The notes: generated from the sequence alone by a model not told the origin. A stretch of DNA of 64,000 bases from Candidatus Woesebacteria bacterium RIFCSPHIGHO2_01_FULL_38_10 (GCA_001792215.1 MGGC01000038.1:3555-67554); one strand, 5' to 3'. Counted from the stretch's first letter, positions 6,540 through 55,389 are shown. Numbers and translations are program-made.

Positions 6540-7424
6540 ATGCCCAAAGTAAAATCGGCAAAATCAGTAATCGCCAAAAGCGATGAGGGAACTATTCAAG
6601 TAACCTTTACAATCCCTTTTGAAAAAATTAAAAAAACAAAAAACCTTGTTGCCCAAGAACTTGGAAAAGGAATCCAAATTCCCGGCTTCAGAAAGGGAAA
6701 AGCGCCTCTATCCAAACTTTTAAATCATATTTCCAAAAATACACTTCTTGAAAAAACATTATCGAAACTTCTACCTGAACTTTACTCAGAAATAATTGAT
6801 AAAGAAAAGTTAAAACCAATTGTCCTCCCCAAATTCGAAGTTATAAAAGCAAATGATAATGAAGACTGGGAAATAAGAGCAACTACATGTGAACTACCTG
6901 AATTTGACTTGAATGATTATAAAAGTCAGGTTCAAGGGGCTTTAAGAGCCAAAAGTCTTTGGACCCCCGGAAAAACAGAAGCAAAAAGCCCTAATAAACC
7001 CTTAACTAGAGAGGAAAAAGAGCAGGAAGTAATAAAAACCTTACTTTCTTCGATAAAGATTAGTATTCCCAAAATCCTAATTGACAATGAAGTAGACTCA
7101 AGACTGGCAAAATTCTTACAAAGATTGGAAAGACTGGGTTTGAGTTTAGAATCCTATCTTTCGTCCGTAGGAAAAACCGCAAAAACCATAAGAGAAGAAT
7201 ATGAAAGACAAGCCAGAGAGGCAATTAGTCTTGATTTGATACTAACAAAAATCTCAAAAATAGAAAAAATTGAAGTTAAGAAAGAAAAAATTGATGAAGC
7301 GATAAAAGCAGCAAACGCCGACAGAAAACTGGCTGAAAAACTTGATACTCCTGAACAAAGAAGACTAATTGAGCTGGTCTTAAAAAAAAGGTCAGCACTT
7401 GAATCTTTGGTCGAAGCGATTTGA
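6540..7424 (+). CDS. tig: Trigger factor (short form, no recognisable PPIase domain)
   Basis: TF signature GKGIQIPGFRKGKAPLSKL in the N-terminal ribosome-binding domain; only 294 aa. Confidence 0.75.
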   Translation: MPKVKSAKSVIAKSDEGTIQVTFTIPFEKIKKTKNLVAQELGKGIQIPGFRKGKAPLSKLLNHISKNTLLEKTLSKLLPELYSEIIDKEKLKPIVLPKFEVIKANDNEDWEIRATTCELPEFDLNDYKSQVQGALRAKSLWTPGKTEAKSPNKPLTREEKEQEVIKTLLSSIKISIPKILIDNEVDSRLAKFLQRLERLGLSLESYLSSVGKTAKTIREEYERQAREAISLDLILTKISKIEKIEVKKEKIDEAIKAANADRKLAEKLDTPEQRRLIELVLKKRSALESLVEAI

Positions 7425-7483
7425 ATTCATACTTGCCAAAACCAGTCACTTCTTGGTATAATTCGCCCAAATTAGCCTTTTCC

Positions 7484-8125
7484 ATGAATAAAACCAGTAA
7501 AAATCCAAAACAGCAAAAAGTTGATAAATCAAATAGCCTGGAAGTTTTAAATGAACTTGAAAGTATAGGTAAGTCAGTATCTAAGCAAATACTAGCGGAA
7601 GCAAAAAGTATTCCAGGCGAATTTGTAGATCAGCTCTTTGGAGTAAACTCACAAGCTAAATACTCAGGAGAAATTTCTCCGGGGGAAGCGGTTGAATTCA
7701 GTGAAATTTGGGATAACCAACAGCAGGAAAGAAAAAGGGCGGGAATACAAATTAGATTAGAACGAAAATTCCTAGAAGAAGAAAGAATAAGAGTTGAAAG
7801 AAAAACCAATGAACTAAAAATTGAACTTAAACTTATTCAGGAAGAACTTTTAGTTTTAGCTGAAAATACGCAAGGTCTTGCTGAAGAAACTCAGATCGCC
7901 GCAATGCAGTCTCCTATCGAGCCGGGTCTCTACCACGTCATCTTTTTCGAAAAACTGCTTGAGTTCATTAAATCCTTTGTCAAAAAAGTTGAAGAAGCCT
8001 CGGTTTGGCTACATGCACTTAATAAACGATCCGCCAAGAAAAATGTTTGGGGTGCAAATTATAAAAAATTCGGTGCAAAATATCTTCTTTCCGGAGAGCA
8101 CTACCTGCAAAGATCAGCGGGGTAA
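7484..8125 (+). CDS. Hypothetical coiled-coil protein
   Basis: Track ORF 7421 starts on TTG overlapping the tig stop; first ATG at 7484 (MNKTSKNPKQQ). Charged coiled-coil centre ERKRAGIQIRLERKFLEEERIRVERKTNELKIELKLIQEEL. Confidence 0.45.
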   Translation: MNKTSKNPKQQKVDKSNSLEVLNELESIGKSVSKQILAEAKSIPGEFVDQLFGVNSQAKYSGEISPGEAVEFSEIWDNQQQERKRAGIQIRLERKFLEEERIRVERKTNELKIELKLIQEELLVLAENTQGLAEETQIAAMQSPIEPGLYHVIFFEKLLEFIKSFVKKVEEASVWLHALNKRSAKKNVWGANYKKFGAKYLLSGEHYLQRSAG

Positions 8126-8128
8126 AAA

Positions 8129-8350
8129 ATGAGTAATCAAGAAATACCTAAGGTTCTCTGTCCTAAAGGTTCAGCCTTTGAAGGAATACCCTGCTTGTAT
8201 CCTGAAGGCTGTAGGCACGGGTGTGAAAGGCTAGCAAGAGTATTAGAAACAATAGAATCAAAAAATCCCGGACAACAAATAAGACAAATGCAAAGAAGGA
8301 TTTTAGAAAGGGTTAAAAAACCAAAAGAAGGCGGGACTAAGGCCGAATGA
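8129..8350 (+). CDS. Hypothetical small Cys-containing protein
   Basis: 73 aa with 4 Cys (CPKG...C...C..GC), starts 4 nt after the previous stop; the antisense ORF 8137-8463 looks like noise. Confidence 0.25.
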   Translation: MSNQEIPKVLCPKGSAFEGIPCLYPEGCRHGCERLARVLETIESKNPGQQIRQMQRRILERVKKPKEGGTKAE

Positions 8351-8392
8351 ACTCTTTTTACTTTTCTCCAAGCATCAGTTAAAATAACTCCA

Positions 8393-9760
8393 ATGACTGA
8401 ACAGAACCTTCTTGGTCCGCTTTTACATATTCTCAAAATCCCCAGTGTTTCAACCCAGGACAAACATCTTCCTGAAATGAAAAAGGCAAGAGACTATCTT
8501 GTTAACCTTTTTCAATCAATAGGTTTTAAAACAAAAATTTTAAAAGGCAAAAGGCACGATGCAGTTTTCGCAGAACTTACAACTAACAACCGGCCGGCAG
8601 GCCGGCATGGCCGACAACCTACAACTTTAATATACGGTCACTACGACGTCCAACCTCCTGATCCGATGGGGGAATGGAAGACACCTCCCTTTGAACCAAC
8701 GATCAAACAGGGAAAAATTTACGGCCGGGGAACAACAGACCAGAAAGGCCAATTAATGATTCATATCATGGCTGTTAAAAAACTTTTAAAATCTCGCCCG
8801 AGAGGTGTGAACTTCAAGTTCATTATCGAAGGAGAAGAAGAAATCGGTTCGGTAAGTGTTGAAGAAATTGTCAAAAAATATAAAGATTTATTAAAAGCCG
8901 ACTACTTGGTTGTTTCAGATTCACAAATGCCTGAAGAAGATCAACCTTCGATAGACGTGTCTTTGCGGGGACTTTTATACACCGAAGTAAAAATCCAAAC
9001 CGCAAAACACGATCTCCATTCGGGGCAATTCGGAGGTGCTGCCGAAAATCCCGCAAATCTACTTGCTCATATTATTGCAAAACTCAAAGACGAAAACGGT
9101 AAAATCCTGATTCCTAATTTTTACAAAAACGTTATGAAACCAACCAAAGAAGAACTTAAGGCCTACAAATCATCCGGATTAACAACATCCAAAGTTAAAA
9201 AAGAAGGCGGACTTTATCTTATTGGAGGAGGGGAAAGTGAGCTAAACATGGTCGATCGGATGTGGACCCGACCTACTCTTGATATTAACGGAATATGGTC
9301 CGGTTACACTAATGAGGGAGCAAAAACCATAATTCCAGCTAAAGCCTCAGCCAAAATTTCTATGCGACTTGTACCTAATCAAAATCCTGGCAAAATTTTT
9401 ACAAATTTTGAAGAATATATCAAGAAATTAACTCCTGAGGGGGCAAAAATTACTATTAAAAGACACGCCGATTGCCTGCCTTACAAAGCACCAACTGATG
9501 ATCCAGTCTTTAGTTTAATCAAACAAAGTCTCAAAAAAGCATTTGGGAAATATCCGGTTTTTACCGCGGTCGGGGGATCAGTCGGTTTCGTACCGATAGT
9601 CGCAAGAGAATTAAATATACCCTGCATTTTAGTTGGTTTCGGACTCCCAACGGACAATCTCCACGCACCCAACGAGCACTTTAGTCTATCAAACTACTAT
9701 AAAGGGATAGAGACGATGGAAGATTTTTATTTGAATCTTGACAAAATAGAGGTAAGTTAA
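8393..9760 (+). CDS. M20A-family metallodipeptidase (CNDP/DUG1-like)
   Basis: LIYGHYDVQPPDPMGEWKTPPFEP...GKIYGRGTTDQKG metal-binding block; ~455 aa with dimerisation domain, as in carnosinase/Cys-Gly dipeptidase-type M20A enzymes. Confidence 0.8.
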   Translation: MTEQNLLGPLLHILKIPSVSTQDKHLPEMKKARDYLVNLFQSIGFKTKILKGKRHDAVFAELTTNNRPAGRHGRQPTTLIYGHYDVQPPDPMGEWKTPPFEPTIKQGKIYGRGTTDQKGQLMIHIMAVKKLLKSRPRGVNFKFIIEGEEEIGSVSVEEIVKKYKDLLKADYLVVSDSQMPEEDQPSIDVSLRGLLYTEVKIQTAKHDLHSGQFGGAAENPANLLAHIIAKLKDENGKILIPNFYKNVMKPTKEELKAYKSSGLTTSKVKKEGGLYLIGGGESELNMVDRMWTRPTLDINGIWSGYTNEGAKTIIPAKASAKISMRLVPNQNPGKIFTNFEEYIKKLTPEGAKITIKRHADCLPYKAPTDDPVFSLIKQSLKKAFGKYPVFTAVGGSVGFVPIVARELNIPCILVGFGLPTDNLHAPNEHFSLSNYYKGIETMEDFYLNLDKIEVS

Positions 9761-9892
9761 ATAAAATATCACAAATTCATGACAATTATATCCCTTATCC
9801 TCGTTAACTTTGTCCTCTTTATTGAGGGCTAACTGACGTGGTGAGGGATAGATAACTAACAACCAACAACTAATAACTAACAACCAAAAACA

Positions 9893-9915
9893 CCTCTCAC
9901 CACGAGAGGTTTTTT
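9893..9915 (+). terminator. Rho-independent terminator after the M20A gene
   Basis: CCTCTC-ACCAC-GAGAGG perfect 6-bp stem followed by TTTTTT. Confidence 0.6.
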
Positions 9916-9932
9916 CATTTTTATATACGAAT

Positions 9933-11135
9933 ATGAGTGAAAGAATACAAAAACCACATCTGCCTTACCGACAAGAAGTTGAGAGTGTTGTGGGCGGAGT
10001 TTTAAAGAGATGTCACCCACTTGGTACACTTGCTACCATCTATTATAAAGAGGCGCCTAATTTAATCGCTAAAACTGTTGATGGAAATACTCCAGCACAC
10101 TTAAACCGATTATTTCGAACAAGTCATTTTTCAGATGAAACTTTCAGGGGTATTCTTGAAGCTATGGCACAATGGTCTAATTTTGATGCACAAGTAGCTG
10201 AATCTCTTGTGGCCGAAACAGTACCTTGCTTAATGGCTTGCACATCATTTCTTAAACTTGAGAATGTAAAATCTTCCATGAATATCGGCTGGCAGTTACT
10301 AGCCAAGCAGGTTGGAGAAGGAAAAGTTTCATTAATGTCTCCACTTTGTCCACCCTATGATTACGTAGTCACCAGTAATGGCCATTTAAAACACGCTACC
10401 GGATCACTCCAACCCAAAATCGGGGAAAGATTCGAAACAGTAGCAAAAACGCTTGGAAGAGCATTCAAACCCTTGACAATTAAGGGTGTGGAGGTAACCT
10501 GGGAATTTTGGACTTACTCGGGTGAAACTTTAAACCTAGATGACGTAGTCGATCTTGGTGCAGACGTAATACAACACTATCAACGGCCTGAAGAAATATT
10601 TTCAAATTTACAAGCAGCATACAGAGATCTTAGATATCAGGCAACTCATCACATGAGTGAATTTGGAGTTGTGGCAAAAACAGTATCTATTGAGAATGTT
10701 ATTGGCCCCGTAATTCACCAAACAACAGAAGAATTTATGACTAGTTTCCCTAAAAGTCGGAATGGTATTCATCCTCCTGAAGAACCAGAGATTGATAAAT
10801 GGCTCGATGATAGATTTGGAGTAAAAGCAGGGTGGCTTATTTTTTTTATACAAGAGGAAAAAAGATATAGACAAAAACAAGGTGGGTTGATAGGCGACGG
10901 TAGTGATCCCATTGTTAAGTCAGCTCTACGAGAGGGACTGCTTTATTTGGGAATGACTAGATGGGCAGATCAAAATGGCACATTGATAATTGGTTTGGAA
11001 ACAACACCTGAATACATGGTCGGATCGTTAAGACACAGCCACGCTCCTGTAATTATGGGCGCTGCCTTTGATCCTAAAAAACCAGAGAATCCACTTAATG
11101 TACGCCAACCATTCAATCTACCTGTACGATTATGA
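9933..11135 (+). CDS. Hypothetical protein, unknown family (400 aa)
   Basis: ATG start; no motif I can assign (contains MSPLCPPYDYVVTSNGHLKHATG, HYQRPEE, THHMSEFG); stop overlaps the ATG of the next M20 gene (ATGA). Confidence 0.6.
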   Translation: MSERIQKPHLPYRQEVESVVGGVLKRCHPLGTLATIYYKEAPNLIAKTVDGNTPAHLNRLFRTSHFSDETFRGILEAMAQWSNFDAQVAESLVAETVPCLMACTSFLKLENVKSSMNIGWQLLAKQVGEGKVSLMSPLCPPYDYVVTSNGHLKHATGSLQPKIGERFETVAKTLGRAFKPLTIKGVEVTWEFWTYSGETLNLDDVVDLGADVIQHYQRPEEIFSNLQAAYRDLRYQATHHMSEFGVVAKTVSIENVIGPVIHQTTEEFMTSFPKSRNGIHPPEEPEIDKWLDDRFGVKAGWLIFFIQEEKRYRQKQGGLIGDGSDPIVKSALREGLLYLGMTRWADQNGTLIIGLETTPEYMVGSLRHSHAPVIMGAAFDPKKPENPLNVRQPFNLPVRL

Positions 11136-12274
11136 GGCAATATTCAAAATTAGGCAGTGAGCTGATATTAATAACCAAAAAATTAATGTCATACAAAACC
11201 TTTGCACCTGAAGGTAATGAGTATTTGTGTACAACATATATAAAAAGTCTTATGAATAAAATTGGTTTTAAAGTATCGATTATGGCAAAAAAGAAAGGGA
11301 GAGACAATGTTATTGGTAAAATTGGTACAGGAAACAAATCTCTTGTTATCGCATGTCACATGGATACCGTACCAGCAGGTGAAGGATGGAAATCAAATCC
11401 TAATAAAGCTTTAATTAAAAACGGGAAAATATATGGAAGAGGGGCCATTGATAATAAGGGACCATTCGCAATATCATATTGTTCAATAAAATCTTTTTTA
11501 GAAAAACACCCAAAATTTCCCGGTACCCTATACTTAGTAACTCTGGCAGATGAAGAGAGTGACAACATCTACGGTATTAAATATCTTTTGAAAAAGGGCT
11601 TCAAGGCATCAGCAGGACTAATACCAGACGGTGGATATATGTCTAAAGCTGTTTATGGTGAAAAAGGTTGTTTACAGATAATAATTGAGAGTCTTGGAAA
11701 ACAAGAACATTCCGCACTACAAGAAAAAGGGGTGCATGCGATTAACAATTTACTCTACTTGATTAACTTAATAAAAAAGGGTCTAAAGTATGAAAAATAC
11801 GACAAAAGATTTACTCCATTGAAAATAAATATTAGTAAAATAAAAGGTGGTGATATAGCAAATACCATTCCCGCATATGCTTACTGTCAGATGGATATAA
11901 GATTCCCCATGGGAATAAGTTCAAAACAAGTTTTAAATAATGTTCAAAAAATTGCACAATCCACAGAAAACAAAAAACAGTCTAAATTTAAAATCACCAC
12001 AGTCTATAAAACTGAACCTCATATAGCAAATAATACTCGTCTAATCCAATCACTTAATAAATCCGCGAAAGACATAAATATTAAAATGGATTTCATTACT
12101 ATAGCTGGGAATAGTGTTGCAAAAGAGTTCACTAAAGGAGGCATACCATCAATTGCACACTATCCTATGGAAAAGATTACAGCACATGAACCAAACGAGT
12201 ATATTGAAATAAAAAGTATGATAAAAGCTACAAAACTTTATGAAAAGTTTTTAGAGCACTACTTCTACTCGTAA
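11132..12274 (+). CDS. M20-family metallohydrolase (ArgE/DapE/aminoacylase-like)
   Basis: VIACHMDTVPAGEGWKSNPNKALIKNGKIYGRGAIDNKG metal-binding block; noticeably AT-richer than the coupled upstream gene. Confidence 0.8.
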   Translation: MRQYSKLGSELILITKKLMSYKTFAPEGNEYLCTTYIKSLMNKIGFKVSIMAKKKGRDNVIGKIGTGNKSLVIACHMDTVPAGEGWKSNPNKALIKNGKIYGRGAIDNKGPFAISYCSIKSFLEKHPKFPGTLYLVTLADEESDNIYGIKYLLKKGFKASAGLIPDGGYMSKAVYGEKGCLQIIIESLGKQEHSALQEKGVHAINNLLYLINLIKKGLKYEKYDKRFTPLKINISKIKGGDIANTIPAYAYCQMDIRFPMGISSKQVLNNVQKIAQSTENKKQSKFKITTVYKTEPHIANNTRLIQSLNKSAKDINIKMDFITIAGNSVAKEFTKGGIPSIAHYPMEKITAHEPNEYIEIKSMIKATKLYEKFLEHYFYS

Positions 12275-12650
12275 TTAAAGGACTCTGTACACCCTCCAGG
12301 TGGTATGAATTCATTGTAAAAAACGCTTTCTGTCCCGAAACTTGGTGTTGAATTTAAAGGTTTACCAGTGGGAGTAATAGAAGAGCTATTAAAAAGTTCT
12401 ATGAATCCATAAGAAGAAGATTACGATCGTTTCAAAGATGAAAGAGGAGTTACTTCGGTTAGAGGTTTTTACGAAACGGGATTTGGTACTCTTTCTCATT
12501 GGCTGAAAAAAAGAGCTACTGAATTAATGTCACGGGGATTTAGTTCAGAGGAAGCTATAAAAGATTGTATGGATGACCTAGGTAGAAGTTACCACGAGCA
12601 CTTGGCAAAAATAAATGGACAGGACATTGTCAAATTATTTAGCTAGCTGT
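12275..12650 (+). pseudogene. Decayed ORF (single frame interrupted by two TAA codons, no usable start)
   Basis: One frame reads ...LKDSVHPPGGMNSL*KTLSVPKLGVEFKGLPVGVIEELLKSSMNP*EEDYDRFKDERGVTSVRGFYETGFGTLSHWLKKRATELMSRGFSSEEAIKDCMDDLGRSYHEHLAKINGQDIVKLFS* with TAA at 12317-19 and 12410-12. Confidence 0.3.
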
Positions 12651-12749
12651 ATACTAGCCTTTAATGTCTAAGAAATTAATCAGCTTTTTCTTTTTTGCAT
12701 TTAACCCCACAAAGGCGGGGTAGATACCTATTTTGAATTATGAGGTGTT

Positions 12750-12771
12750 CCCCGCGAAAGCGGGGTTTTTT
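12750..12771 (+). terminator. Rho-independent terminator-like hairpin
   Basis: CCCCGC-GAAA-GCGGGG then TTTTTT, ending 6 nt before the ATG at 12778; a related hairpin CCCCACAAAGGCGGGG lies at 12705-12720. Confidence 0.5.
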
Positions 12772-12777
12772 ATTTGC

Positions 12778-14466
12778 ATGGGAGCCGAAAGATCAATACA
12801 AATAAATTCCATATCAGAAGCTAAAGCATTGGGTAATGGTGGAGAAATAGCGTTAGGAAACCAGGAAGAAGGAGGTTTAGTTGTTTCTCCAGAAGGAACA
12901 CTTTATGCCTTAAAACATAGAAGGTTCAGACTTAATGGTCGCAAGCCAGGTGATTACACGAGTTCTGATCTCGTACCAGTTTGCTACCGCATAGACCCCT
13001 TACCAAGTGGTGAAGAAACAAGACAAACAGTAACTGCTTGGTTAGAAAGTTTACGGAAAGGAGAAATTCCAGAACATGCAACGGTCGGAGTAGAGGTAGA
13101 GGCTACCTGTTATGATAGAAATTATAAGCTCCTCTCTCCCTACAATGATACTTTTCCTGCCCAGACTTATAATCATCCGGAGCTCCATTCATTTACTTTA
13201 GAAACAGCTACTAGCGAAAACAGCAGCTGTTTACCCAAAACTCCAGTCGAAACTGCGAGAGCAATAGCCAATGCTGTGCTCGATGGCTATAAAATTGTTA
13301 AACCAAGAGGTGGTCAACTAGCATATTCTTCCGTAGCAGAAGCCGGAGACGGAAATAACGCATCGACTACGCCTCATCCGTACTTAATTACCTTTGCACC
13401 GTTAATAGCACAATTTACATTGGATAACATTAATACTGTTCCTCCTGAAACACTTGAAATGTATGAAAGAGCTTATATCGACGTCGTTGGGCAAATGCAA
13501 AAAGGTGTCCTCAATTGGCCGGTAAATGCTCTTCACGTTCATACGGGAGTTCCACAAATAGAAGGTTTGGCCGATCCACGAGCCGCTCATGCTTGTGGAC
13601 TCGTTAAACTTACTGAATTTTCTAAGGTCCTCTCCTTAATGCTTTATAACACGAGACATTTATACGGAGTTGAATTGGGGGGAAAGGATGTTCGTTCAAT
13701 TGTAAGACGTCTCATTGTAAGTTCACATGATGCAACGATTCCTCAAGATACTGAAACTCTGGTGCAAAAAGCTTTACAGCAACTGCGAGAGGGAAAAATT
13801 CACAGCCTTCCAAGATACCCTGACACTGGGCAGCACGACCGTATGAGACTCCGGATGGATGGAAATAAAAAAACAGTCGAATCAATTGATGCTCCCATGA
13901 ATTCTGATCTACGGCTTGTTTTGTTCTGGGTTTTTGCAAACCAACTAAAAGATATTATCGCCCTAGATGCTCTAGAAGCTGTCGGAGGTGATACTTCTCA
14001 AGTAATACTTTATTTAAAGCAAAAGTGGGGAGAAATATTTCAAGTTATTCCAACCATGGGAGCCAATTCAAGTTACGAGCAAGATATTGAATTTAACCAA
14101 CTTGGATATGATGGTAAATCTAGCCTAAGAGGAATACCTTTTGCTAAAGTTCTAAGAGACGTGAAGATAATAATAACCCACTATGGGGATATCTATCCGG
14201 CGGTTGCGTTTGAGGCAGAAGTAATTATAAAAACAATCGACAGACAGCTTACGCCACCAACCCACGGAATAACACTTCAACAATACCTTGGAGTTGAAAC
14301 TGGTGTTTATATGCCTAATGGGCTAAATAATGGATTAGTCACAGATTATAAATACACAGATCCTAAACTAATAGTAAATATACAATCTGCTGCAACAAGA
14401 CTTCAAGCAGAAGCTTTATCAAAAATGACTGACGAAAAGGATTTGAAAGGATTCCTTGGCATTTAA
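12778..14466 (+). CDS. Large divergent protein with GCS2/YbdK-like (carboxylate-amine ligase, glutamate-cysteine ligase family 2) motifs
   Basis: Track start 12733 is TTG inside the terminator hairpin; ATG at 12778 (MGAERSIQ). Blocks TVGVEVEATCYD, NALHVHTGVPQ and HDRMRLRMDG recall the GIELEMQ / QHVHVG / VEVRVMD blocks of YbdK-type ligases. ~566 aa is much longer than YbdK. Assignment is from memory and tentative. Confidence 0.5.
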   Translation: MGAERSIQINSISEAKALGNGGEIALGNQEEGGLVVSPEGTLYALKHRRFRLNGRKPGDYTSSDLVPVCYRIDPLPSGEETRQTVTAWLESLRKGEIPEHATVGVEVEATCYDRNYKLLSPYNDTFPAQTYNHPELHSFTLETATSENSSCLPKTPVETARAIANAVLDGYKIVKPRGGQLAYSSVAEAGDGNNASTTPHPYLITFAPLIAQFTLDNINTVPPETLEMYERAYIDVVGQMQKGVLNWPVNALHVHTGVPQIEGLADPRAAHACGLVKLTEFSKVLSLMLYNTRHLYGVELGGKDVRSIVRRLIVSSHDATIPQDTETLVQKALQQLREGKIHSLPRYPDTGQHDRMRLRMDGNKKTVESIDAPMNSDLRLVLFWVFANQLKDIIALDALEAVGGDTSQVILYLKQKWGEIFQVIPTMGANSSYEQDIEFNQLGYDGKSSLRGIPFAKVLRDVKIIITHYGDIYPAVAFEAEVIIKTIDRQLTPPTHGITLQQYLGVETGVYMPNGLNNGLVTDYKYTDPKLIVNIQSAATRLQAEALSKMTDEKDLKGFLGI

Positions 14467-14580
14467 AAAGTGGTAAAATATGCGCATGAAAACTCCGATA
14501 AAATAATCTACTTTATTTCCGGTTTATTTGAAGCCAATAAAAACATTTGTAGATAATGGACTTATAATTAAGCTAATTGG

Positions 14581-15052
14581 GTCTATTTCAGGATACAAAG
14601 AATTCGTAGCAAACCAGAAAGATTACCAAAGGAAATTGTCTAAAATTAAACACCTTTTACTCGACTAGGTGAGGCCTGTAAACACAGTGCGCCCGACGGG
14701 TGGTAGTCTGGACCCTTTTACAAGGCATGGAAAAAGACTCTGTCCACTATTCCTTGATCAATTTAAAGCCGTAGCTGTAGAAACTGACGAACAACTTATC
14801 CACCTTAGCCGATACATTCATCTTAATCCATATTCTTCACATGTTGTTAAAACAGTCGAAGAGCTGACAGAATACCTATGGTCGTCGTTTGAAGAATACA
14901 TCAAGCCGAAAAACAAAAACGTTTGTGATACAGGCATAATATTGTCTTTATTTAATCACAATGCCAAGCTAATCCACCTCCCAGGTGGATTCTCCATAAG
15001 GAAAATTAAGATTGATGATCTTTGGATTAGAAGTTATAATACTTATTACCAA
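14581..15052 (+). pseudogene. Remnant of a Y1 (IS200/RAYT-like, PF01797-type) tyrosine transposase, frameshifted and N-terminally truncated
   Basis: ORF 14669-15088 (GTG start) contains RYIHLNPYSSHVVKTVEELTEYLWSSFEEY, matching the YIHxNPV...YxWSS C-terminal block of REP-associated/IS200-like Y1 transposases. The upstream frame 14581-14668 reads ...KIKHLLLD* (possible HUH remnant). The ORF runs into tRNA-Val. Confidence 0.55.
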
Positions 15053-15129
15053 GGACGGTTAGCTCAGCTGGCTAGAGCGTTCGCTTGACGTGCGAAAGGT
15101 CGGGGGTTCAAGTCCCTCACCGTCCACCA
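15053..15129 (+). tRNA. tRNA-Val (anticodon GAC), CCA encoded
   Basis: Folded by hand: acceptor GGACGGT/ACCGTCC, D-stem GCTC/GAGC, anticodon stem TTCGC/GCGAA with loop TTGACGT, T-arm GGGGG-TTCAAGT-CCCTC, discriminator A, CCA. Confidence 0.9.
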
Positions 15130-15215
15130 GCTTACCCACCGGTTTGAAAAAATCAGTTTTGGTAAGGGTCCATGGCGCAACTGGTTAGCATGCTTGGCTG
15201 GGTACGTACATTTTG

Positions 15216-15287
15216 GGGCCCCTCGTTCAACGGTCAGGACACCTGGCTGGCAGTCAGGTAATAGGAGTTCGATTCCCCTGGGGTCCA
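15216..15287 (+). tRNA. tRNA-Ala (anticodon GGC), CCA not encoded
   Basis: Acceptor GGGCCCC/GGGGTCC with the G3-U70 wobble that marks Ala; D-stem GTTC/GGAC; anticodon stem CCTGG/TCAGG, loop CTGGCAG; T-arm AGGAG-TTCGATT-CCCCT (one A-C mismatch); discriminator A. Confidence 0.8.
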
Positions 15288-15374
15288 CAATAATTGTACG
15301 TACTTGGCAGTCAGGAGATCGGAGACTTGGGATGTTAGACGTTCTTCGACTCCCTCTAAATCCACAGCATAAAA

Positions 15375-15683
15375 ATGAGAAAAAGATTAATTCAGAAATA
15401 CCACCAGAATGTTCCCAAGGGTGTCAAAAAATTTGTCAAACTTTCAACCCTAAAAAAATTAAAAATTGCCTACATTCCTTATAATGAATTATTCAAAGAA
15501 GGTATTTTTGCAGGTCTCGGATGGGCAGTTGGCGTGACAATTGGTTTTGCGGTAATTTCGTCCGTTTTAGTAATCATTCTAAGACAATTGGGTGGCCTTC
15601 CTGTGATCGGAAACTGGATCGCCTCAATATTTCAAGAAACACAACTACAACTTCTGAAAAGGACCCCAATCATTCCACAATAA
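15375..15683 (+). CDS. Small membrane protein (hypothetical)
   Basis: 102 aa, basic N-terminus then one or two TM helices (GLGWAVGVTIGFAVISSVLVIILRQLGGLPVIGNWI). Confidence 0.4.
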   Translation: MRKRLIQKYHQNVPKGVKKFVKLSTLKKLKIAYIPYNELFKEGIFAGLGWAVGVTIGFAVISSVLVIILRQLGGLPVIGNWIASIFQETQLQLLKRTPIIPQ

Positions 15684-15850
15684 ATGTTTATTTTTACAAG
15701 ATATACCCATTCTACTTGATACACGTCAGACGTGTTGAATTTGCAAGTTTTAAAGGTATGGGCATGTGTCCATTTTAGTTATTAATATAATGCAAAATGG
15801 AGTAAAATGGGCATAATAAGTATAATATACTCATTGATTTTGCAACTCAA

Positions 15851-17650
15851 ATGAGAAACAAAAAGGTAAAACCAGTCAAAAAAAATGAAGGCCTTTGGAC
15901 AATGAGGCATTCGACTGAGCACGTCTTAACCCAAGCCATGCTAAAACTTTTTCCCGGATTAAAAATGGCTATGGGTCCGGCAACTGATGAAGGATTCTAT
16001 TTTGATTTCGACCCTTCGACAAACTCAGGACACGTTTACAAAATTTCAGAAGAAGATTTTCCCAAGATTGAATCCGAAATGCAAAGGATAATTAAAGCCA
16101 ACCTTCCAATTAAAAGAAAAGTTATCCCGATCAAGAATGCAAGAGCTCTTTTTAAAGGCAATGAATATAAACAAGAATGGCTTGATGAAATCGAAAACAA
16201 GGGAGAAAAGCTAACTGTCTTCTGGACAGGAAAGGAGTTTGTGGATTTGTGTGTCGGACCTCATGTCGCTTCAACCGGCAAAATAGGCCCGTTAAAACTC
16301 TTGTCAATTGCCGGAGCTTATTGGCGAGGAAGCGAAAAAAACAAAATGCTGGTAAGAATTTACGGAACAGCCTTTCCAAGCAAAAAAGAACTTGATGAAT
16401 ATCTTCAAATACAGAAAGAAGCAAAGAACCGCGATCATAGAAAATTGGGGCGCGATCTTGATCTGTTCACTTTTGCTGAGGAGGTCGGGCCCGGCCTCCC
16501 GCTTTGGACTCCAAAAGGGACTATAATCCAACAAGAACTTAGAAACTGGGCTGAAGAGACTGAAAAAAAATGGGGGTATGTCCGAGTAAGAACCCCTCAT
16601 ATCGCAAAGCACACTCTCTACGAGATTTCCGGACATCTGCCTTACTATAAAGATAATATGTACTCTCCGATGGATATCGATGGCGAAGATTACTATCTAA
16701 AAGGCATGAACTGCCCACATCATCACATGATCTATAAATCTTCACCCAAATCCTACCGCGATTTACCACTCAGATATGCCGAGTACGGAGAAGTCTATCG
16801 TTACGAACAATCAGGTACACTCTTTGGTTTAATGCGCGTACGCTTCATTCAACAAAACGACGCCCACATTTACTGTGCAATGGAAGATGCTGAAAAAGAA
16901 TTTTTGGATGTTTTGAAACTCCATGAATACTACTACAACATAATTGGTTTGACACGAGACGACTATCACATCGTCATGGGACTCCCTGACGAGAAAAAGC
17001 GCGACAAGTACCATGGCGATAAATCACTTTGGGATAAAGCTGAAGATATGATGCGCCAAGCGATTAAAAAATCGGGAATTAAATGGGTCGATGATATCGG
17101 GGGAGCCGCATTTTACGGACCGAAAATAGATTTTAATATAACCTCATCAGTCGGCAGGGTATTTGGGATTTCTACAAACCAACTTGATCTTTACATGCCA
17201 GAAAGATTTAATCTGACCTATACCGACAAAGACGGGTCTGAGAAGTTAACCGCAGTGATTCACAGAGCGCCACTTGGGTCACACGAGAGATTCATCGGCT
17301 TTCTAATCGAGCATTTTGGCGGAGCATTTCCCGTTTGGCTTACACCAGTTCAGGTTAAAGTACTTCCCGTTACTGAAAAAACCCTTGAGTATGCACGCGA
17401 AATAACCAAACGTCTAGACAACGAGGGGATACGAGTCGAACTCAATGATCGAAACGAAACATTGCAAGCCAAGATTCGCGACGCCCAACTTGAAAAAATT
17501 CCCTATATGCTTATAATAGGGAATAAAGAACAAAAAGCTAAAAATATTACAGTTCGCTTGCGGTCTAAAAAAGACTTGGGATGGATGAGTTTGGGAAAGT
17601 TTGTAGAAAGAGTGAAAGATAAAATAGAAAAAAAATCCCTAATTCTCTAA
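15851..17650 (+). CDS. thrS: Threonyl-tRNA synthetase (no N-terminal TGS domain)
   Basis: tRNA_SAD zinc motif HSTEHVLTQAM, class II core and C-terminal anticodon-binding domain; 599 aa. Confidence 0.9.
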   Translation: MRNKKVKPVKKNEGLWTMRHSTEHVLTQAMLKLFPGLKMAMGPATDEGFYFDFDPSTNSGHVYKISEEDFPKIESEMQRIIKANLPIKRKVIPIKNARALFKGNEYKQEWLDEIENKGEKLTVFWTGKEFVDLCVGPHVASTGKIGPLKLLSIAGAYWRGSEKNKMLVRIYGTAFPSKKELDEYLQIQKEAKNRDHRKLGRDLDLFTFAEEVGPGLPLWTPKGTIIQQELRNWAEETEKKWGYVRVRTPHIAKHTLYEISGHLPYYKDNMYSPMDIDGEDYYLKGMNCPHHHMIYKSSPKSYRDLPLRYAEYGEVYRYEQSGTLFGLMRVRFIQQNDAHIYCAMEDAEKEFLDVLKLHEYYYNIIGLTRDDYHIVMGLPDEKKRDKYHGDKSLWDKAEDMMRQAIKKSGIKWVDDIGGAAFYGPKIDFNITSSVGRVFGISTNQLDLYMPERFNLTYTDKDGSEKLTAVIHRAPLGSHERFIGFLIEHFGGAFPVWLTPVQVKVLPVTEKTLEYAREITKRLDNEGIRVELNDRNETLQAKIRDAQLEKIPYMLIIGNKEQKAKNITVRLRSKKDLGWMSLGKFVERVKDKIEKKSLIL

Positions 17651-54411: not shown

Positions 54412-55389
54412 TCAACGCCCTTTCCCATGAAACGCGTCATGAATTTCTCTCAAGTGCTTATGAGTTACATGAGTATAAATCTGGGTTGTCTGGATATTTT
54501 TATGCCCCAGCATTTCCTGAACACTTCTAATATCTGCCCCAGCCATCAATAAATCAGTTGCGAAAGAGTGCCTCAGGACATGAGGGGTTACCTCAATTGG
54601 TAACTTCATTTTTTCGCCATATTTTTTGATCATTCTCTGAACAGATCGGGAAGTAAGGCGAACTTTTTCATCAGAAGTGGAAGGACTAATCGCACCTTTA
54701 TGTCTTATAAAAAGTGGTTTAAATTTATCCTCTCTTACTTTAAGATAATTTTCAAGCCAGTTAACTGCTCTTTGTGACAAAAAAACAATACGCGCCTTCC
54801 CACCTTTTCCCACAATTCCAAACTCTCGTCTCTGCAAATCAAGTTTATCCCGGTCAAGTCTCACTAATTCGGAAACCCGAAGCCCGGTTGAAAATAAAAC
54901 TTCCAAAATTGCCTTGTCGCGCTTGCCCTGAACGGTTGATAGGGTAGGGGCGTTAAGAAGCCTGTCAATCTGCTCTCCGGTCAGGAATTTAACTTGCCTT
55001 TCTGAAACCTTGGGAAGATCTATCTTGTCAGGCGACATAACTTCATAGTCATTTTTGATAAGCCAGCGAAGAAAGGATCGGAGCGCAATTACATGATAAG
55101 CCTGAGTTCTCCTGCCTAAAGTTGAATCCTTGCTGCGGGAGTAAGGTCGACTGAATTTAATAGGCAGTCTTGAAAGAAAAACCCTGTATTGTCTTACCAA
55201 CTCGGGGTTTATATCGCGAAGTCCCAATCGGATTCCTTCTTTTCTTAACCAGTCCAAAAAGCGGTTTAAATAGTGCCTATAATTTCTTATTGTTAGGCTA
55301 GAGGAGCCTCTCTCAACCTCCAGATACTCTAAAAACTCATCAATTTTTTTTGACAGCTCGGAAGAATTTTTCTGGGCAGAGGAAACCAT
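54412..55389 (-). CDS. Tyrosine site-specific recombinase, XerC/XerD family
   Basis: N-terminal SAM-like domain; catalytic R...HVLRHSFATDLLMAGADIRSVQEMLGHKNIQTTQIYTHV with nucleophile Tyr. Confidence 0.85.
   Translation of the reverse strand: MVSSAQKNSSELSKKIDEFLEYLEVERGSSSLTIRNYRHYLNRFLDWLRKEGIRLGLRDINPELVRQYRVFLSRLPIKFSRPYSRSKDSTLGRRTQAYHVIALRSFLRWLIKNDYEVMSPDKIDLPKVSERQVKFLTGEQIDRLLNAPTLSTVQGKRDKAILEVLFSTGLRVSELVRLDRDKLDLQRREFGIVGKGGKARIVFLSQRAVNWLENYLKVREDKFKPLFIRHKGAISPSTSDEKVRLTSRSVQRMIKKYGEKMKLPIEVTPHVLRHSFATDLLMAGADIRSVQEMLGHKNIQTTQIYTHVTHKHLREIHDAFHGKGR

What the first reader, a model, noticed from the sequence alone, without database searches (positions are those of the whole stretch)
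8393..15370. tRNA-associated accessory island carrying two M20 peptidases, an unknown 400-aa protein, a GCS2-like ligase-like protein, gene debris and a transposase remnant
From ~8.4 to 15.4 kb the gene content changes from housekeeping to an unusual set. (a) There is a CNDP/DUG1-like M20A dipeptidase. (b) A 400-aa protein with no recognisable family is translationally coupled (ATGA overlap) to (c) a second, noticeably AT-richer M20 hydrolase. (d) An ORF is interrupted by two in-frame TAA codons. (e) A 566-aa protein carries glutamate-cysteine-ligase-family-2-like (YbdK) motif blocks. (f) A frameshifted Y1 transposase remnant runs into (g) tRNA-Val and a tRNA-Ala in an odd sequence context. 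GC content differs visibly by eye between neighbouring genes. This is what an island integrated at a tRNA and then decayed would look like. DUG1-type dipeptidases and GCS2-type ligases both act on gamma-glutamyl/Cys-containing peptides, so the cargo could be a small thiol- or amide-peptide metabolic module. That would be unexpected in a reduced CPR-type genome.
Basis: partly seen in the sequence, partly recalled or inferred. Interest (0 to 1): 0.7.

Follow-up and report, generated by a model that had tools for sequence, protein, structure and literature searches.

The report
Starvation-switched enzyme operons, not an island
The supposed tRNA-linked island is a vertically inherited, partly decayed gene cluster of a CPR bacterium, in which two operons of little-known amide-bond enzymes each sit behind a classic leader-peptide attenuator, one predicted to sense phenylalanine and one Ile/Leu/Val.

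Summary
The island interpretation does not hold.

- **No island signature.** Codon usage and GC3 are typical of the window. No att-type repeats or integrase flank the region.
- **Conserved locus.** Every gene recurs in related Microgenomates at the same place (tig–DUF5660 … tRNA-Val/Ala–DUF5665–thrS). Each relative carries a collinear subset of one order: M20A, U400, M20b, A, B, (small ORF), M20'.
- **A remnant.** The "debris" ORF is the last 112 codons of gene A, a distant paralog of the 562-aa protein B.
- **U400.** The 400-aa protein belongs to a tiny orphan family. Its fold distantly resembles isonitrile synthases, cyclodipeptide synthases and TyrRS. An M20b gene always follows it directly.
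- **Two leader-peptide attenuators (new).**
  - A Phe-rich leader (MSKKLISFFFFAFNPTKAG) with antiterminator and terminator lies before B in 14 distinct loci.
  - An Ile/Leu/Val-rich leader lies before U400–M20b in 5 loci, and before A in 10 loci that lack U400–M20b.

In this genome operon 1 has lost A. Operon 2 has lost the small ORF and M20'. Two Y1-transposase fragments lie downstream of B. The enzymes' chemistry is unknown. Their regulation points to acquisition of hydrophobic amino acids.

The parts
8393..9760 (+). M20A dipeptidase/carboxypeptidase (455 aa). It has its own promoter-like site (TTTACT-17-TAAAAT, 8357-8385) ending 7 nt before the ATG.
   Evidence: NF006053 scores 457 bits, above the 441 cutoff. 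Pfam. PDB relatives are Sso-CP2, CNDP1/2 and DUG1. Orthologs directly precede A in L004, L014 and L018. Promoter scan.
9738..9767 (+). Promoter-like site of operon 1 (-35 TTGACA, 18 nt, -10 TAAAAT; 11 of 12 matches).
   Evidence: It aligns with the same hexamers upstream of the leaders in L008, L012, L013, L004, L018 and L014.
9779..9832 (+). Leader ORF 1, MTIISLILVNFVLFIEG*. It has 9 Ile/Leu/Val and 2 Phe among 17 codons.
   Evidence: Homologous leader peptides precede U400 in L008, L010, L011 and L012. They precede A in L004, L013, L014, L016, L018, L001, L002, L006, L020 and L021.
9837..9916 (+). Attenuator 1. The antiterminator arm CGTGGTGAGGG (9837-9847) can pair with CCTCTCACCAC (9893-9903). 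The terminator is ACCTCTC-ACCAC-GAGAGGT (9892-9910) followed by a T tract.
   Evidence: Terminator scan. Constrained folds predict the antiterminator in 15 loci. The alignment shows conserved arms.
9933..11135 (+). U400, an orphan 400-aa protein. It has an N-terminal helical domain and a Rossmann-like core that distantly resembles IsnA/PvcA, cyclodipeptide synthases and TyrRS/TrpRS. The motif SPLCPPYxY carries an invariant Cys139.
11132..12274 (+). M20b, an ArgE/DapE-family M20 deacylase or peptidase (380 aa). It overlaps U400 by ATGA.
   Evidence: TIGR01910 scores 236.5, above the 217.6 cutoff. PDB DapE/ArgE hits. Orthologs at 54-59% identity directly follow U400 in L008/9, L010, L011 and L012.
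12305..12646 (+). Pseudogene remnant of gene A. It holds the last ~112 codons of a ~596-aa GCS2-like paralog of B, with in-frame TAA at 12317 and 12410.
   Evidence: tblastn gives 60% identity to L005 A (residues 257-368 of the partial product) and 50% to L004 A (residues 485-596). Translation. The A and B families are paralogs: hhalign probability 98.9%, E 1.8e-17, 459 columns. A of L004 hits YbdK-family TIGR02050 at E 1.8e-7 and Pfam GCS2 at 20.5 bits.
12627..12655 (+). Promoter-like site of operon 2 (-35 TTGTCA, 17 nt, -10 TATACT). The -10 ends 8 nt before the leader ATG.
   Evidence: A -10-like hexamer lies at the same place in the aligned relatives (spacing read by eye).
12664..12723 (+). 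Leader ORF 2, MSKKLISFFFFAFNPTKAG*. Five Phe fall within six consecutive codons (12685-12702).
   Evidence: Searches find Phe-rich leader ORFs upstream of B in 14 distinct loci. It is the only single-residue-run ORF followed by a terminator on either strand of the 64-kb window.
12705..12771 (+). Attenuator 2. Segment 1 is CCCCAC (12705-10). Segment 2 is GCGGGG (12715-20), inside the leader ORF. Segment 3 is CCCCGC (12750-55). Segment 4 is GCGGGG (12760-65), followed by TTTTTT. The 3:4 hairpin is the terminator and 2:3 is the antiterminator. B's ATG follows at 12778.
   Evidence: terminator. Searches give alignments of 8-13 loci. Segments 2, 3 and 4 change together: the GCGGGG/CCCCGC type against the GGCGGG/CCCGCC type. 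In one search, 2:3 pairing is predicted in 13 of 13 loci when a ribosome is stalled on the Phe run (dG -15 to -24 kcal/mol).
12778..14466 (+). B, a 562-aa divergent GCS2/YbdK-fold carboxylate-amine ligase-like protein. It has an N-terminal beta domain and a C-terminal helical extension of about 200 aa.
14561..14968 (+). Two fragments of a Y1 (IS200/IS605-type, PF01797) transposase in permuted order. 14561-14665 matches residues 179-213 plus the stop. 14717-14968 matches residues 108-189. The HUH N-terminal half is missing.
15053..15129 (+). tRNA-Val(GAC), preceded by a promoter-like TTGATG-17-TATAAT (15012-15040). It is part of the conserved backbone.
   Evidence: tRNA-Val(GAC) lies at the same locus in L004, L005 and L008.
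15166..15366 (+). Nested tRNA-Ala. An intact tRNA-Ala(GGC) (15216-15288, with G3:U70) sits inside a degenerate second tRNA-Ala-like gene. The insert is bracketed by the palindrome GTACGTAC (15202-09 and 15295-302).
   Evidence: repeat D15.

Best explanation
**What it is.** The segment from 8.4 to 15.4 kb is native chromosome of a Microgenomates-type CPR bacterium. It is a conserved but lineage-variable cluster of amide-bond enzymes, lying between tig–DUF5660 and tRNA-Val/tRNA-Ala–DUF5665–thrS.

**Full gene order.**
- M20A dipeptidase with its own promoter.
- Operon 1: promoter, Ile/Leu/Val-rich leader peptide, attenuator, U400, M20b, A.
- Operon 2: promoter, Phe-rich leader peptide, attenuator, B, (small ORF), M20'.

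**How it works (inferred from sequence, as in pheL-pheA or ilvL).**
- When Phe-tRNA(Phe) is plentiful, the ribosome reads through the leader. It covers segments 1 and 2, the 3:4 terminator forms, and transcription stops just before the enzyme gene.
- When that tRNA is poorly charged, the ribosome stalls on the Phe run. Segment 2 pairs with segment 3, and transcription runs on into the enzymes.
- Operon 1 would respond in the same way to Ile/Leu/Val-tRNA charging.

**Enzyme content.** Each operon pairs one GCS2-fold carboxylate-amine-ligase-like enzyme (A or B) with one ArgE/DapE-type M20 hydrolase (M20b or M20').

**Proposed role.** These are starvation-induced devices for acquiring or salvaging hydrophobic amino acids from peptides or amide conjugates, in an organism expected (general knowledge of CPR, not tested here) to lack de novo synthesis of them.

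**State in this genome.** The cluster is eroding. A is reduced to a 112-codon pseudogene. The small ORF and M20' are gone. Dead Y1-transposase fragments lie in their place. Both attenuators, U400, M20b and B are intact.

**How firm each step is.**
- Shown: synteny, paralogy, folds, and the leader ORFs with alternative hairpins across many loci.
- Inferred: that attenuation operates, and that the enzymes serve amino-acid acquisition.
- Unknown: the reactions catalysed.
For: **Synteny and collinearity**
- L014 has DUF5660–M20A–A–B–M20'.
- L018 has tig–DUF5660–M20A–A–B.
- L004 has M20A–A–B–small–M20'–AlaDH-like–tRNA-Val.
- L005 has A–B–small–M20'…tRNA-Val–DUF5665.
- L008 has tig–DUF5660–U400–M20b–tRNA-Ala–tRNA-Val–DUF5665–thrS–infC–rpmI–rplT–pheST.
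- L012 (Woesebacteria) has U400–M20b–M20'.
- All are collinear subsets of one order.
- Identity of U400 and M20b to L008 (41% and 55%) matches the backbone genes (tig 55%, thrS 57%).

**No foreign signature**
- Codon-usage z scores run from -1.0 to 0.0.
- M20b is AT-poor in GC but normal in GC3, and the same holds in all 5 genomes.
- There are no att repeats.

**Gene identities**
- The debris is the C-terminus of A.
- A and B are paralogs.

**Attenuators**
- Phe-rich leader ORFs lie upstream of B in 14 distinct loci.
- Terminator and antiterminator are predicted in 13 of 13 loci analysed.
- Segments 2, 3 and 4 co-vary.
- The Phe leader is the only such element in the 64-kb window.
- The ILV-rich leader, promoter and attenuator are alignable between U400-preceding and A-preceding contexts.
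Against: - There are no expression data. Attenuation is inferred from sequence only.
- The MFE of the free leader prefers a nested 1:4/2:3 fold. With a stalled ribosome the full-length thermodynamic fold still keeps the terminator in 5 of the 8 loci folded. The model therefore relies on co-transcriptional order, as for classical attenuators.
- Both leader peptides are hydrophobic and could in principle be small membrane peptides.
- No leader matches Rfam. The best hit is Phe_leader at 15 bits, E 7.3, on attenuator 1. Nothing matches attenuator 2.
- A ligase that consumes an amino acid is not an obvious response to starvation for that amino acid.
- Some A–B loci sit among glycosyltransferase genes. 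A distant B-like protein lies in a sugar-modification cluster.
- Differential loss cannot be strictly separated from insertion of U400–M20b between the leader and A. No sister genome carries an intact U400–M20b–A operon.
Confidence: 0.72

Rival explanations
1. First reader's model. A genomic island integrated at tRNA-Val/Ala, brought in a thiol or gamma-glutamyl-peptide module (DUG1-type dipeptidase plus GCS2 ligase), and then decayed.
For: - tRNA genes, a transposase remnant and pseudogene debris are present.
- In relative L004 a phage-type integrase lies just downstream of the same tRNA-Val. This tRNA can therefore serve as an integration site in the group.
- M20A is DUG1/CNDP-like, and B has a GCS2 fold.
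Against: - The genes are syntenic in relatives at the same locus, upstream of the tRNA. An island in L004 would lie downstream of it.
- There is no integrase and no att repeat here.
- Codon usage and GC3 are typical of the window.
- The leaders are rich in Phe and Ile/Leu/Val, not Cys.
Confidence: 0.04
2. Local insertion model. The ancestral arrangement was M20A, then ILV-leader–A, then Phe-leader–B–M20'. In this lineage the U400–M20b pair was inserted by recombination between the leader and A, deleting the first four-fifths of A.
For: - Four relatives with A–B (L004, L014, L018, and L013/L016) have the leader directly before A, with no U400–M20b.
- A is truncated within about 30 nt of the M20b stop.
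- U400 is very rare: 34 cluster representatives and one GTDB species.
Against: - The same homologous promoter, leader and attenuator also precede U400–M20b in L008, L010 and L012, where A is absent.
- L012 has U400–M20b–M20'. This is the order expected from loss of A–B out of a full cluster.
- U400 and M20b diverge from their L008 orthologs as much as the backbone genes do.
- Codon usage is native.
Confidence: 0.2
3. The conserved short ORFs are not regulatory leaders. The T-rich or hydrophobic ORFs encode small membrane peptides or are untranslated. The hairpins are ordinary terminators of the upstream genes, or binding sites for a protein.
For: - Both peptides are hydrophobic.
- There is no Rfam match.
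- A T-rich tract reads as Phe in any frame.
- The thermodynamic MFE does not always favour the antiterminator.
Against: - The ATG, the frame and the stop position just after segment 2 are conserved in 14 loci. Changes occur in whole codons.
- The terminator abuts the start of the downstream gene, and the promoter lies upstream of the leader.
- Segment 2 co-varies with segment 3.
- The ILV leader keeps its position whether U400 or A follows it.
- In the window, A is dead but the element before B is intact.
Confidence: 0.1
4. A and B are biosynthetic ligases for a cell-envelope or secondary product, for example amidation of a glycan carboxylate with an amino acid or formation of a gamma-glutamyl peptide. 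They are not salvage enzymes.
For: - B has a GCS2 ligase fold.
- A–B loci in L002 and L006 are embedded among glycosyltransferase and epimerase genes.
- A distant B-like gene (30% identity) lies in a DegT / formyltransferase / GT1 / AMP-ligase cluster.
Against: - Induction by shortage of charged tRNA is the opposite of what is expected for a pathway that consumes that amino acid.
- The constant partners are M20 hydrolases, not glycan enzymes.
- The flanks differ from genome to genome.
Confidence: 0.15

Closest known systems
Phe-codon leader-peptide attenuators of Enterobacteria (pheL-pheA, pheM-pheST; Rfam RF01859 Phe_leader)
   Same: A short ORF carries a run of Phe codons. Its stop lies in or after segment 2. 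Four segments form mutually exclusive 1:2/3:4 and 2:3 pairings. A GC-rich terminator with a U tract lies immediately before the regulated gene.
   Different: There is no match to the Rfam model. The element is found in Patescibacteria. In several loci the -10 box lies only 6-8 nt before the leader ATG, suggesting a leaderless mRNA (read by eye). The regulated gene is a GCS2-fold enzyme of unknown function, not a Phe biosynthetic enzyme or PheRS.
Multivalent branched-chain leader attenuators (ilvL-ilvGMEDA, ilvBN and leu leaders). Leader-peptide attenuators have also been described in Actinobacteria (PMC1262725).
   Same: The leader is rich in Ile, Leu and Val codons and is followed by an antiterminator and terminator.
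   Different: The leader is shorter (15-26 codons) and also carries Phe codons. It controls an orphan Rossmann-like protein, an M20 hydrolase and a GCS2-like protein rather than ilv or leu genes.
YbdK / GCS2 carboxylate-amine ligases (PF04107; PDB 1tt4)
   Different: Identity is 13%. B has no Pfam or NCBIfam hit, and A falls just below the Pfam cutoff (20.5 against 21 bits). B has an extra N-terminal beta domain and a C-terminal helical extension of about 200 aa. It occurs as a tandem of two deeply diverged paralogs under different attenuators.
PafA/Dop (Pup ligase and depupylase), which share the carboxylate-amine ligase superfamily (PMC2588565)
   Different: There is no Pup_ligase Pfam hit. 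The small ORF ends in ...PDGQR or ...PINQQ, not GGQ or GGE, and is absent from most loci. No proteasome genes are nearby.
IsnA/PvcA isonitrile synthases, cyclodipeptide synthases and class-Ic aminoacyl-tRNA synthetases (compared with U400)
   Different: TM-scores are only 0.30-0.53 and identity is 4-13%. There is no Pfam hit to DIT1_PvcA or CDPS. No HIGH or KMSKS motif is visible. U400 has its own invariant set (C139, H154, Y195, E334, E356 and others) and an extra N-terminal helical domain.
tRNA-targeted integrative genomic islands
   Same: tRNA genes and a mobile-element remnant lie at one edge, and gene decay is present.
   Different: There is no integrase, no att duplication and no compositional deviation. 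The content is shared syntenically with relatives.

Membership tests
tRNA-integrated genomic island | Absent from the same locus in related genomes | tested here: not met
   M20A, A, B, M20', U400 and M20b occur at the tig–DUF5660 … tRNA–DUF5665–thrS locus in L004, L005, L008, L014 and L018.
tRNA-integrated genomic island | Direct repeat of the tRNA 3' part (att) at the far boundary, and an integrase next to the tRNA | tested here: not met
   The repeat search over 7800-15900 found only AT-rich chance matches and the nested tRNA-Ala duplication. There is no integrase in the region. The nearest integrase-like ORF lies at 54412-55389.
tRNA-integrated genomic island | Atypical base composition or codon usage | tested here: not met
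   Codon-usage distance z scores run from -1.0 to 0.0 for the four genes. The lowest gene GC has z -1.9, with a less extreme GC3 (z -1.8, close to U400's -1.4).
Leader-peptide transcription attenuator (trp/phe/ilv type) | A short ORF with a run of codons for the sensed amino acid, conserved across relatives | tested here: met
   Phe runs occur in 14 distinct loci. Ile/Leu/Val-rich leaders occur in 15 loci.
Leader-peptide transcription attenuator (trp/phe/ilv type) | An intrinsic terminator just upstream of the regulated gene, and a mutually exclusive antiterminator exposed by a ribosome stalled at the regulatory codons | tested here: met
   This was tested in silico only. Terminators with U tracts lie 9-33 nt before the gene. 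With the ribosome masked, 2:3 pairing is predicted in 13 of 13 Phe leaders and 15 of 15 ILV leaders with a correctly placed leader ORF (a 16th, L027, was folded from wrong leader coordinates).
Leader-peptide transcription attenuator (trp/phe/ilv type) | Covariation supporting the pairings | tested here: inconclusive
   Segments 2, 3 and 4 switch together between the GCGGGG/CCCCGC and GGCGGG/CCCGCC types. RNAalifold on the MAFFT alignment recovered only 3 invariant pairs, because of register ambiguity in the G/C runs.
Leader-peptide transcription attenuator (trp/phe/ilv type) | Read-through that responds to charged-tRNA level | not testable with these tools
   This needs reporter fusions, term-seq or in vitro coupled transcription-translation.
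GCS2 / YbdK carboxylate-amine ligase family (PF04107) | The glutamine-synthetase-like GCS2 fold | tested here: met
GCS2 / YbdK carboxylate-amine ligase family (PF04107) | A match to the family HMM above its curated threshold | tested here: not met
   B has no Pfam or NCBIfam hit, even at E of 10. A of L004 scores 20.5 bits against a cutoff of 21, and TIGR02050 scores 30.9 against 176.
GCS2 / YbdK carboxylate-amine ligase family (PF04107) | ATP-dependent ligation of a carboxylate (Glu) to an amine | not testable with these tools
   The invariant Glu, His and Arg residues were not mapped onto GCS2 or GCL catalytic positions, so active-site retention is not established. No activity assay was possible.
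Cyclodipeptide synthase / IsnA-PvcA (for U400) | A match to the family HMM (CDPS, or DIT1_PvcA PF05141) | tested here: not met
   There is no Pfam hit at E of 10 or below apart from a spurious Cnd1 match. Remote family members also lack Pfam hits.
Cyclodipeptide synthase / IsnA-PvcA (for U400) | Fold similarity of the catalytic Rossmann-like domain | tested here: inconclusive
IS200/IS605-type Y1 transposase (PF01797) | An intact ORF with the HUH motif and catalytic Tyr | tested here: not met
   Only residues 108-189 and 179-213 of about 213 are present, in permuted order.
M20A dipeptidase (NF006053) and ArgE/DapE deacylase (TIGR01910) | A match above the curated cutoff | tested here: met
   457 bits against 441 for 8393-9760. 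236.5 bits against 217.6 for 11132-12274.

The most novel reading that the evidence does not exclude
Ribosome-mediated leader-peptide attenuation operates in CPR/Patescibacteria. Here it controls a previously unrecognised two-enzyme route for obtaining hydrophobic amino acids: a GCS2-fold ATP-dependent amide enzyme plus an ArgE/DapE-type M20 hydrolase. The unit is duplicated into a Phe-specific set (B with M20') and an Ile/Leu/Val-specific set (A with M20b, plus the orphan IsnA/CDPS-like U400). If so, these auxotrophic, reduced-genome bacteria sense charged-tRNA levels. They would respond with dedicated chemistry that frees or traps specific amino acids from host- or environment-derived conjugates.
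Probability: 0.3. Interest if true: 0.8.

Novelty: new variant of a known kind. Interest (0 to 1): 0.6.

Why it matters
**Regulation in CPR bacteria.** These bacteria have small genomes and few known regulators, and are thought to depend on other cells for amino acids. Two clear leader-peptide attenuators, conserved across many Microgenomates genomes, would show that they monitor tRNA charging with the classic mechanism known from Proteobacteria and Actinobacteria. Searches of the held paper library for leader peptide plus attenuation with CPR or Patescibacteria returned nothing.

**A functional handle on unknown enzymes.** The attenuators attach three uncharacterised protein families to defined amino acids. 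B is tied to Phe. A and U400, with M20b, are tied to Ile/Leu/Val. That turns "hypothetical proteins" into assayable candidates.

**Caught in mid-erosion.** The window also shows such a cluster partway through decay. This is useful for understanding gene loss in reduced genomes.

**The original claim.** Showing that the locus is not a horizontally acquired island is itself a useful negative result.

Tried and rejected
1. **Pup-like system** (two GS-fold paralogs plus a small protein). Rejected. The small ORF is present only in L004 and L005, has no GGQ/GGE end, and there is no Pup_ligase hit or proteasome.
2. **LysW-type amino-group carrier system** (ligase, small carrier, M20 LysK). Not supported. 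The small ORF does not end in Glu and is usually absent. M20' hits [LysW]-lysine hydrolase only weakly, at 79 bits against a cutoff of 363.
3. **REP- or IS-end hairpins flanking A'–B.** The CCACCTCCCAGGTGG hairpin at 14974-14988 has no second copy within 3 mismatches.
4. **att repeats.** None found.
5. **Sequence-level PDB searches** with the B and U400 profiles found nothing.
6. **Rfam.** No family matched either leader, and no family other than tRNA matched the tRNA flanks.
7. **RNAalifold** on the Phe-attenuator alignment failed to recover the hairpins because of register ambiguity. Per-sequence constrained folds were used instead.
8. **AFDB Foldseek library** was unavailable.
9. **N-terminal half of the transposase** was sought in other frames and is absent.
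10. **Other single-residue-run leader attenuators** were sought across the whole window, for example before pheS or thrS. Only the one before B was found.
11. **Remote U400 relatives** were scanned for a Pfam link. None was found.

Full report
**Observation check.**

ORF listing, tRNA scan and family scans confirm the inventory on the + strand.
- tig lies at 6540-7424 and DUF5660 at 7421-8125.
- An M20A dipeptidase lies at 8393-9760. NF006053 scores 457 bits against a cutoff of 441. Its PDB relatives are Sso-CP2, CNDP1/2 and DUG1.
- A 400-aa protein without any family ("U400") lies at 9933-11135. It overlaps by ATGA an ArgE/DapE-type M20 ("M20b") at 11132-12274.
- A frame with two in-frame TAA codons lies at 12275-12646.
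- A large ORF ends at 14466.
- A weak Y1-transposase match precedes tRNA-Val(GAC) at 15053-15129 and tRNA-Ala(GGC) at 15216-15288.
- DUF5665 and thrS follow.

Corrections:
- The large protein starts at ATG 12778 and has 562 aa.
- The transposase remnant is two truncated fragments in permuted order, lacking the HUH half. Its homologs are 213-aa PF01797 proteins at 50-59% identity.

**Composition.**

The 1-kb GC profile of the region (0.34-0.43) lies inside the window's range of 0.32-0.47. I compared the genes with 48 long ORFs of the window.
- The codon-usage distance of the four genes is at or below the mean (z -1.0 to 0.0).
- Only M20b is GC-poor (0.322, z -1.9).
- Its GC3 (0.260) is close to that of U400 (0.274).
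- M20b orthologs are AT-richer than their U400 partner in all five genomes examined.

The difference therefore reflects amino-acid composition, not foreign origin. No att-like direct repeat bounds the region.

**Synteny.**

The 562-aa protein ("B") has 41 homologs, all about 560 aa and without Pfam domains, named where named as Roizmanbacteria or Patescibacteria. In every genomic context recovered, B is directly preceded by a 580-599-aa protein ("A") and accompanied by a ~357-aa M20 ("M20"'). These contexts are L001, L002/3, L004, L005, L006/7, L013, L014/15, L016, L018, L020, L021/22 and L027.

tblastn shows that the window's "debris" at 12305-12643 is the last 112 codons of A. It is 60% identical to L005 A and 50% to L004 A. 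A and B are paralogs over nearly their whole length: hhalign probability 98.9%, E 1.8e-17, 459 columns.

Relatives show the backbone.
- L014: DUF5660–M20A–A–B–M20'.
- L018: tig–DUF5660–M20A–A–B.
- L004: M20A–A–B–small ORF–M20'–AlaDH-like–tRNA-Val(GAC)–integrase.
- L005: A–B–small–M20'–…–tRNA-Ala–…–tRNA-Val–DUF5665.

U400 has only five close homologs. It has 34 relatives among 1.84 billion cluster representatives and occurs in one GTDB species, a Woesebacteria MAG. It is always followed directly by an M20b ortholog at 54-59% identity.
- L008 reads tig–DUF5660–U400–M20b–tRNA-Ala–tRNA-Val–DUF5665–thrS–infC–rpmI–rplT–pheST. This is the window's backbone without M20A, A and B.
- L012 reads U400–M20b–M20'.

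All arrangements are collinear subsets of M20A–U400–M20b–A–B–(small)–M20'. U400 and M20b diverge from L008 (41% and 55%) about as much as tig (55%) and thrS (57%) do. The tRNAs belong to the conserved backbone.

**Protein identities.**

B nevertheless has no Pfam or NCBIfam hit. A of L004 reaches only 20.5 bits against a cutoff of 21, and E 1.8e-7 on the YbdK-family model. The window's B retains all 58 family-invariant residues.

*U400.* The AF2 model, built on 5 sequences, has pLDDT 83.
- Foldseek top hits are PvcA (E 7.6e-4) and PIsnA, then CDPSs. TM-scores are only 0.30-0.53.
- Eighteen members share 16 invariant residues, including C139, P140, Y142, H154, Y195, G197, E334 and E356.
- None of ten family members scanned, including the most remote ones, has a real Pfam link.

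This is a distant, class-I-aaRS-like, amino-acid-handling fold. It is not membership of any named family.

**The unexpected finding: two leader-peptide attenuators.**

*Attenuator 2, before B.* The A–B spacer is as conserved as coding sequence (74% column identity in 5 loci). In the window it contains the following.
- A promoter-like site: TTGTCA-17-TATACT at 12627-12655.
- A 19-codon ORF, MSKKLISFFFFAFNPTKAG*, at 12664-12723.
- Hairpin 1 inside that ORF: CCCCAC at 12705-10 and GCGGGG at 12715-20.
- A terminator at 12750-12771: CCCCGC-GAAA-GCGGGG followed by T6. It ends 6 nt before B's ATG.

Segment 2 is complementary to segment 3. Scripts found equivalent Phe-rich ORFs in every B locus. Examples are MNKNLLSFFFFTFNPSKRGAVS, MKITFFRFFFFAFNPENAG, MNYQIKLNFGFFFFNPSKRGAVS, MSKRNINQKFFFFFFNHAHAG, MITASTSFGFFFFFTPQMAG, MKKIKLTNFFFFFFNPNLGGVVF and MSSKRHISFFFFFSPSWRGYMM.

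I folded each leader with a ribosome masked on the Phe run and segment 4 not yet made. Segment 3 then pairs with segment 2 in 13 of 13 loci (dG -15 to -24 kcal/mol). Each locus also has a terminator of -6 to -17 kcal/mol plus a U tract. Across loci, segments 2, 3 and 4 switch together between the GCGGGG/CCCCGC and GGCGGG/CCCGCC types. A scan of both strands of the whole window for single-residue-run ORFs followed by a terminator returns only this element.

*Attenuator 1, before U400.* Upstream of U400 lies the same kind of device.
- A promoter-like site: TTGACA-18-TAAAAT at 9738-9767.
- The leader MTIISLILVNFVLFIEG* at 9779-9832.
- An antiterminator arm at 9837-9847.
- A terminator at 9892-9910.

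Homologous Ile/Leu/Val-rich leaders precede U400 in L008, L010, L011 and L012. They precede A in the loci that lack U400–M20b: MKLMSLIIVSILLFKGEV in L004, and similar peptides in L013, L014, L016, L018, L001, L002, L006, L020 and L021. All have the antiterminator and terminator alternative. The promoter, leader and terminator are alignable between the two contexts.

Rfam gives no significant match to either attenuator. The best hit is Phe_leader at 15 bits, E 7.3, on attenuator 1. Searches of the held paper library for leader peptide plus attenuation with CPR or Patescibacteria returned nothing.

**Interpretation.**

The region is a native cluster organised as two operons induced by amino-acid starvation.
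- Operon 1: ILV-leader, U400, M20b, A.
- Operon 2: Phe-leader, B, (small ORF), M20'.

The M20A dipeptidase lies upstream. Each operon pairs a GCS2-fold enzyme with an ArgE/DapE-type M20. The paralog pairs A/B and M20b/M20' (24-29% identity) thus look like one two-enzyme unit duplicated for different amino acids.

In this genome:
- A is a 5'-truncated pseudogene.
- The small ORF and M20' have been lost.
- Two dead Y1-transposase fragments lie in their place. A Y1 homolog also lies about 4 kb downstream of B in L027.
- Both attenuators, U400, M20b and B remain intact.

Because the same leader precedes either U400 or A, and L012 links M20b directly to M20', differential loss from a full ancestral cluster is the simplest history. 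Insertion of U400–M20b between the leader and A cannot be excluded (about 0.2).

**Function.**

Shown: folds, paralogy, operon structure and the regulatory codons. Inferred: that expression rises when Phe-tRNA or Ile/Leu/Val-tRNA charging falls.

I think the enzymes most likely serve acquisition or salvage of these amino acids (about 0.5).
- The M20s would release them from peptides or N-acyl or gamma-glutamyl conjugates.
- A and B would act either as ATP-dependent ligases that trap the amino acid or, like Dop in the same superfamily, as amidases.

A biosynthetic ligase role in envelope glycans or secondary products is a weaker rival. Its support is that some loci sit among glycosyltransferase genes, and that a 30%-identical B-like gene lies in a DegT / formyltransferase / GT1 cluster.

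**Verdict.**
- The observations are confirmed.
- The island interpretation is not supported, although its gene-level guesses were good.
- What is present is a new variant of known kinds: classic attenuation in an unexpected phylum, controlling divergent GCS2-fold enzymes and an orphan family.
- Interest is 0.6. The regulatory logic gives a direct experimental handle on three unknown protein families in CPR bacteria.

Noticed in passing
window 15166-15366: Nested tRNA. An intact tRNA-Ala(GGC) (15216-15288, with G3:U70) sits in the anticodon loop of a second, degenerate tRNA-Ala(GGC)-like gene. The outer acceptor stem has 5 of 7 pairs, and there is an extra 10-20 nt insertion in its T region. 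The insert is bracketed by the self-complementary 8-mer GTACGTAC. ARAGORN calls the outer gene only after two in-silico excisions (41 of 26,460 trials). The origin is unexplained. It could be duplication, insertion of a mini-element, or a split gene.
   Followed up: partly
L005 6896-7080 and 6723-6770: In the closest relative, a second tRNA-Val-like sequence lies downstream of tRNA-Val(GAC). It is interrupted by large insertions in the D loop and T arm. A ~50-nt repeat (GTCCAAAAGGACCATCAGCCTTTGGCTGAGGCCTCTGGCCGAGGCTAGA) occurs twice. Interrupted tRNA paralogs therefore recur at this locus.
   Followed up: no
L004 7338-8559: In relative L004 a phage-type integrase (PF00589) lies directly downstream of the same tRNA-Val(GAC). 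This tRNA is probably an integration site in this group, but on the side away from the enzyme cluster.
   Followed up: no
window 8129-8350: A 73-aa ORF with four Cys (C-x12-C-x6-C-x3-C) lies between DUF5660 and M20A. It has no Pfam hit. It is absent from the same spacer in L014 and L018.
   Followed up: no
window 8357-8395; also the leader ATGs in A4/A5 loci: The -10-like hexamers lie only 6-8 nt upstream of the ATG of M20A and of the Phe leader ORF in most loci. No Shine-Dalgarno sequence is visible. This suggests leaderless mRNAs. It was read by eye and not tested statistically.
   Followed up: partly
L023 389-620; L001 7729-8030; L020 4806-5050: Some relatives carry two leader and terminator units in tandem before B (L023) or before A (L001, L020).
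   Followed up: no
L012 7065-9125; proteins P0045, P0127, P0142: Some U400 family members are 655-686 aa, with an extra N-terminal region of about 250 aa that has no Pfam match.
   Followed up: no
L028 1407-8440: A distant B-like protein (30% identity, 494 aa) has no Phe leader. It sits in a cluster with a PLP decarboxylase, a DegT aminotransferase, a formyltransferase, a GT1 glycosyltransferase and an AMP-binding ligase. This suggests that other branches of the family act in sugar or glycan modification.
   Followed up: partly
L004 4765-4980, L005 2931-3143 vs window 9933-9962: The 70-aa ORF between B and M20' begins MEERIQSPKI (L005) or MVEIIQKTKE (L004). This resembles the N-terminus of U400 (MSERIQKPHL). 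It may be chance.
   Followed up: no
window 14974-14988: A perfect small palindrome, CCACCT-CCC-AGGTGG, lies right after the second transposase fragment. It is unique in the window. It might be a remnant of an IS200/IS605-type end hairpin.
   Followed up: partly
window 54412-55389 (- strand): An ORF 25% identical to the L004 phage-type integrase lies elsewhere in the window, far from the region studied.
   Followed up: no
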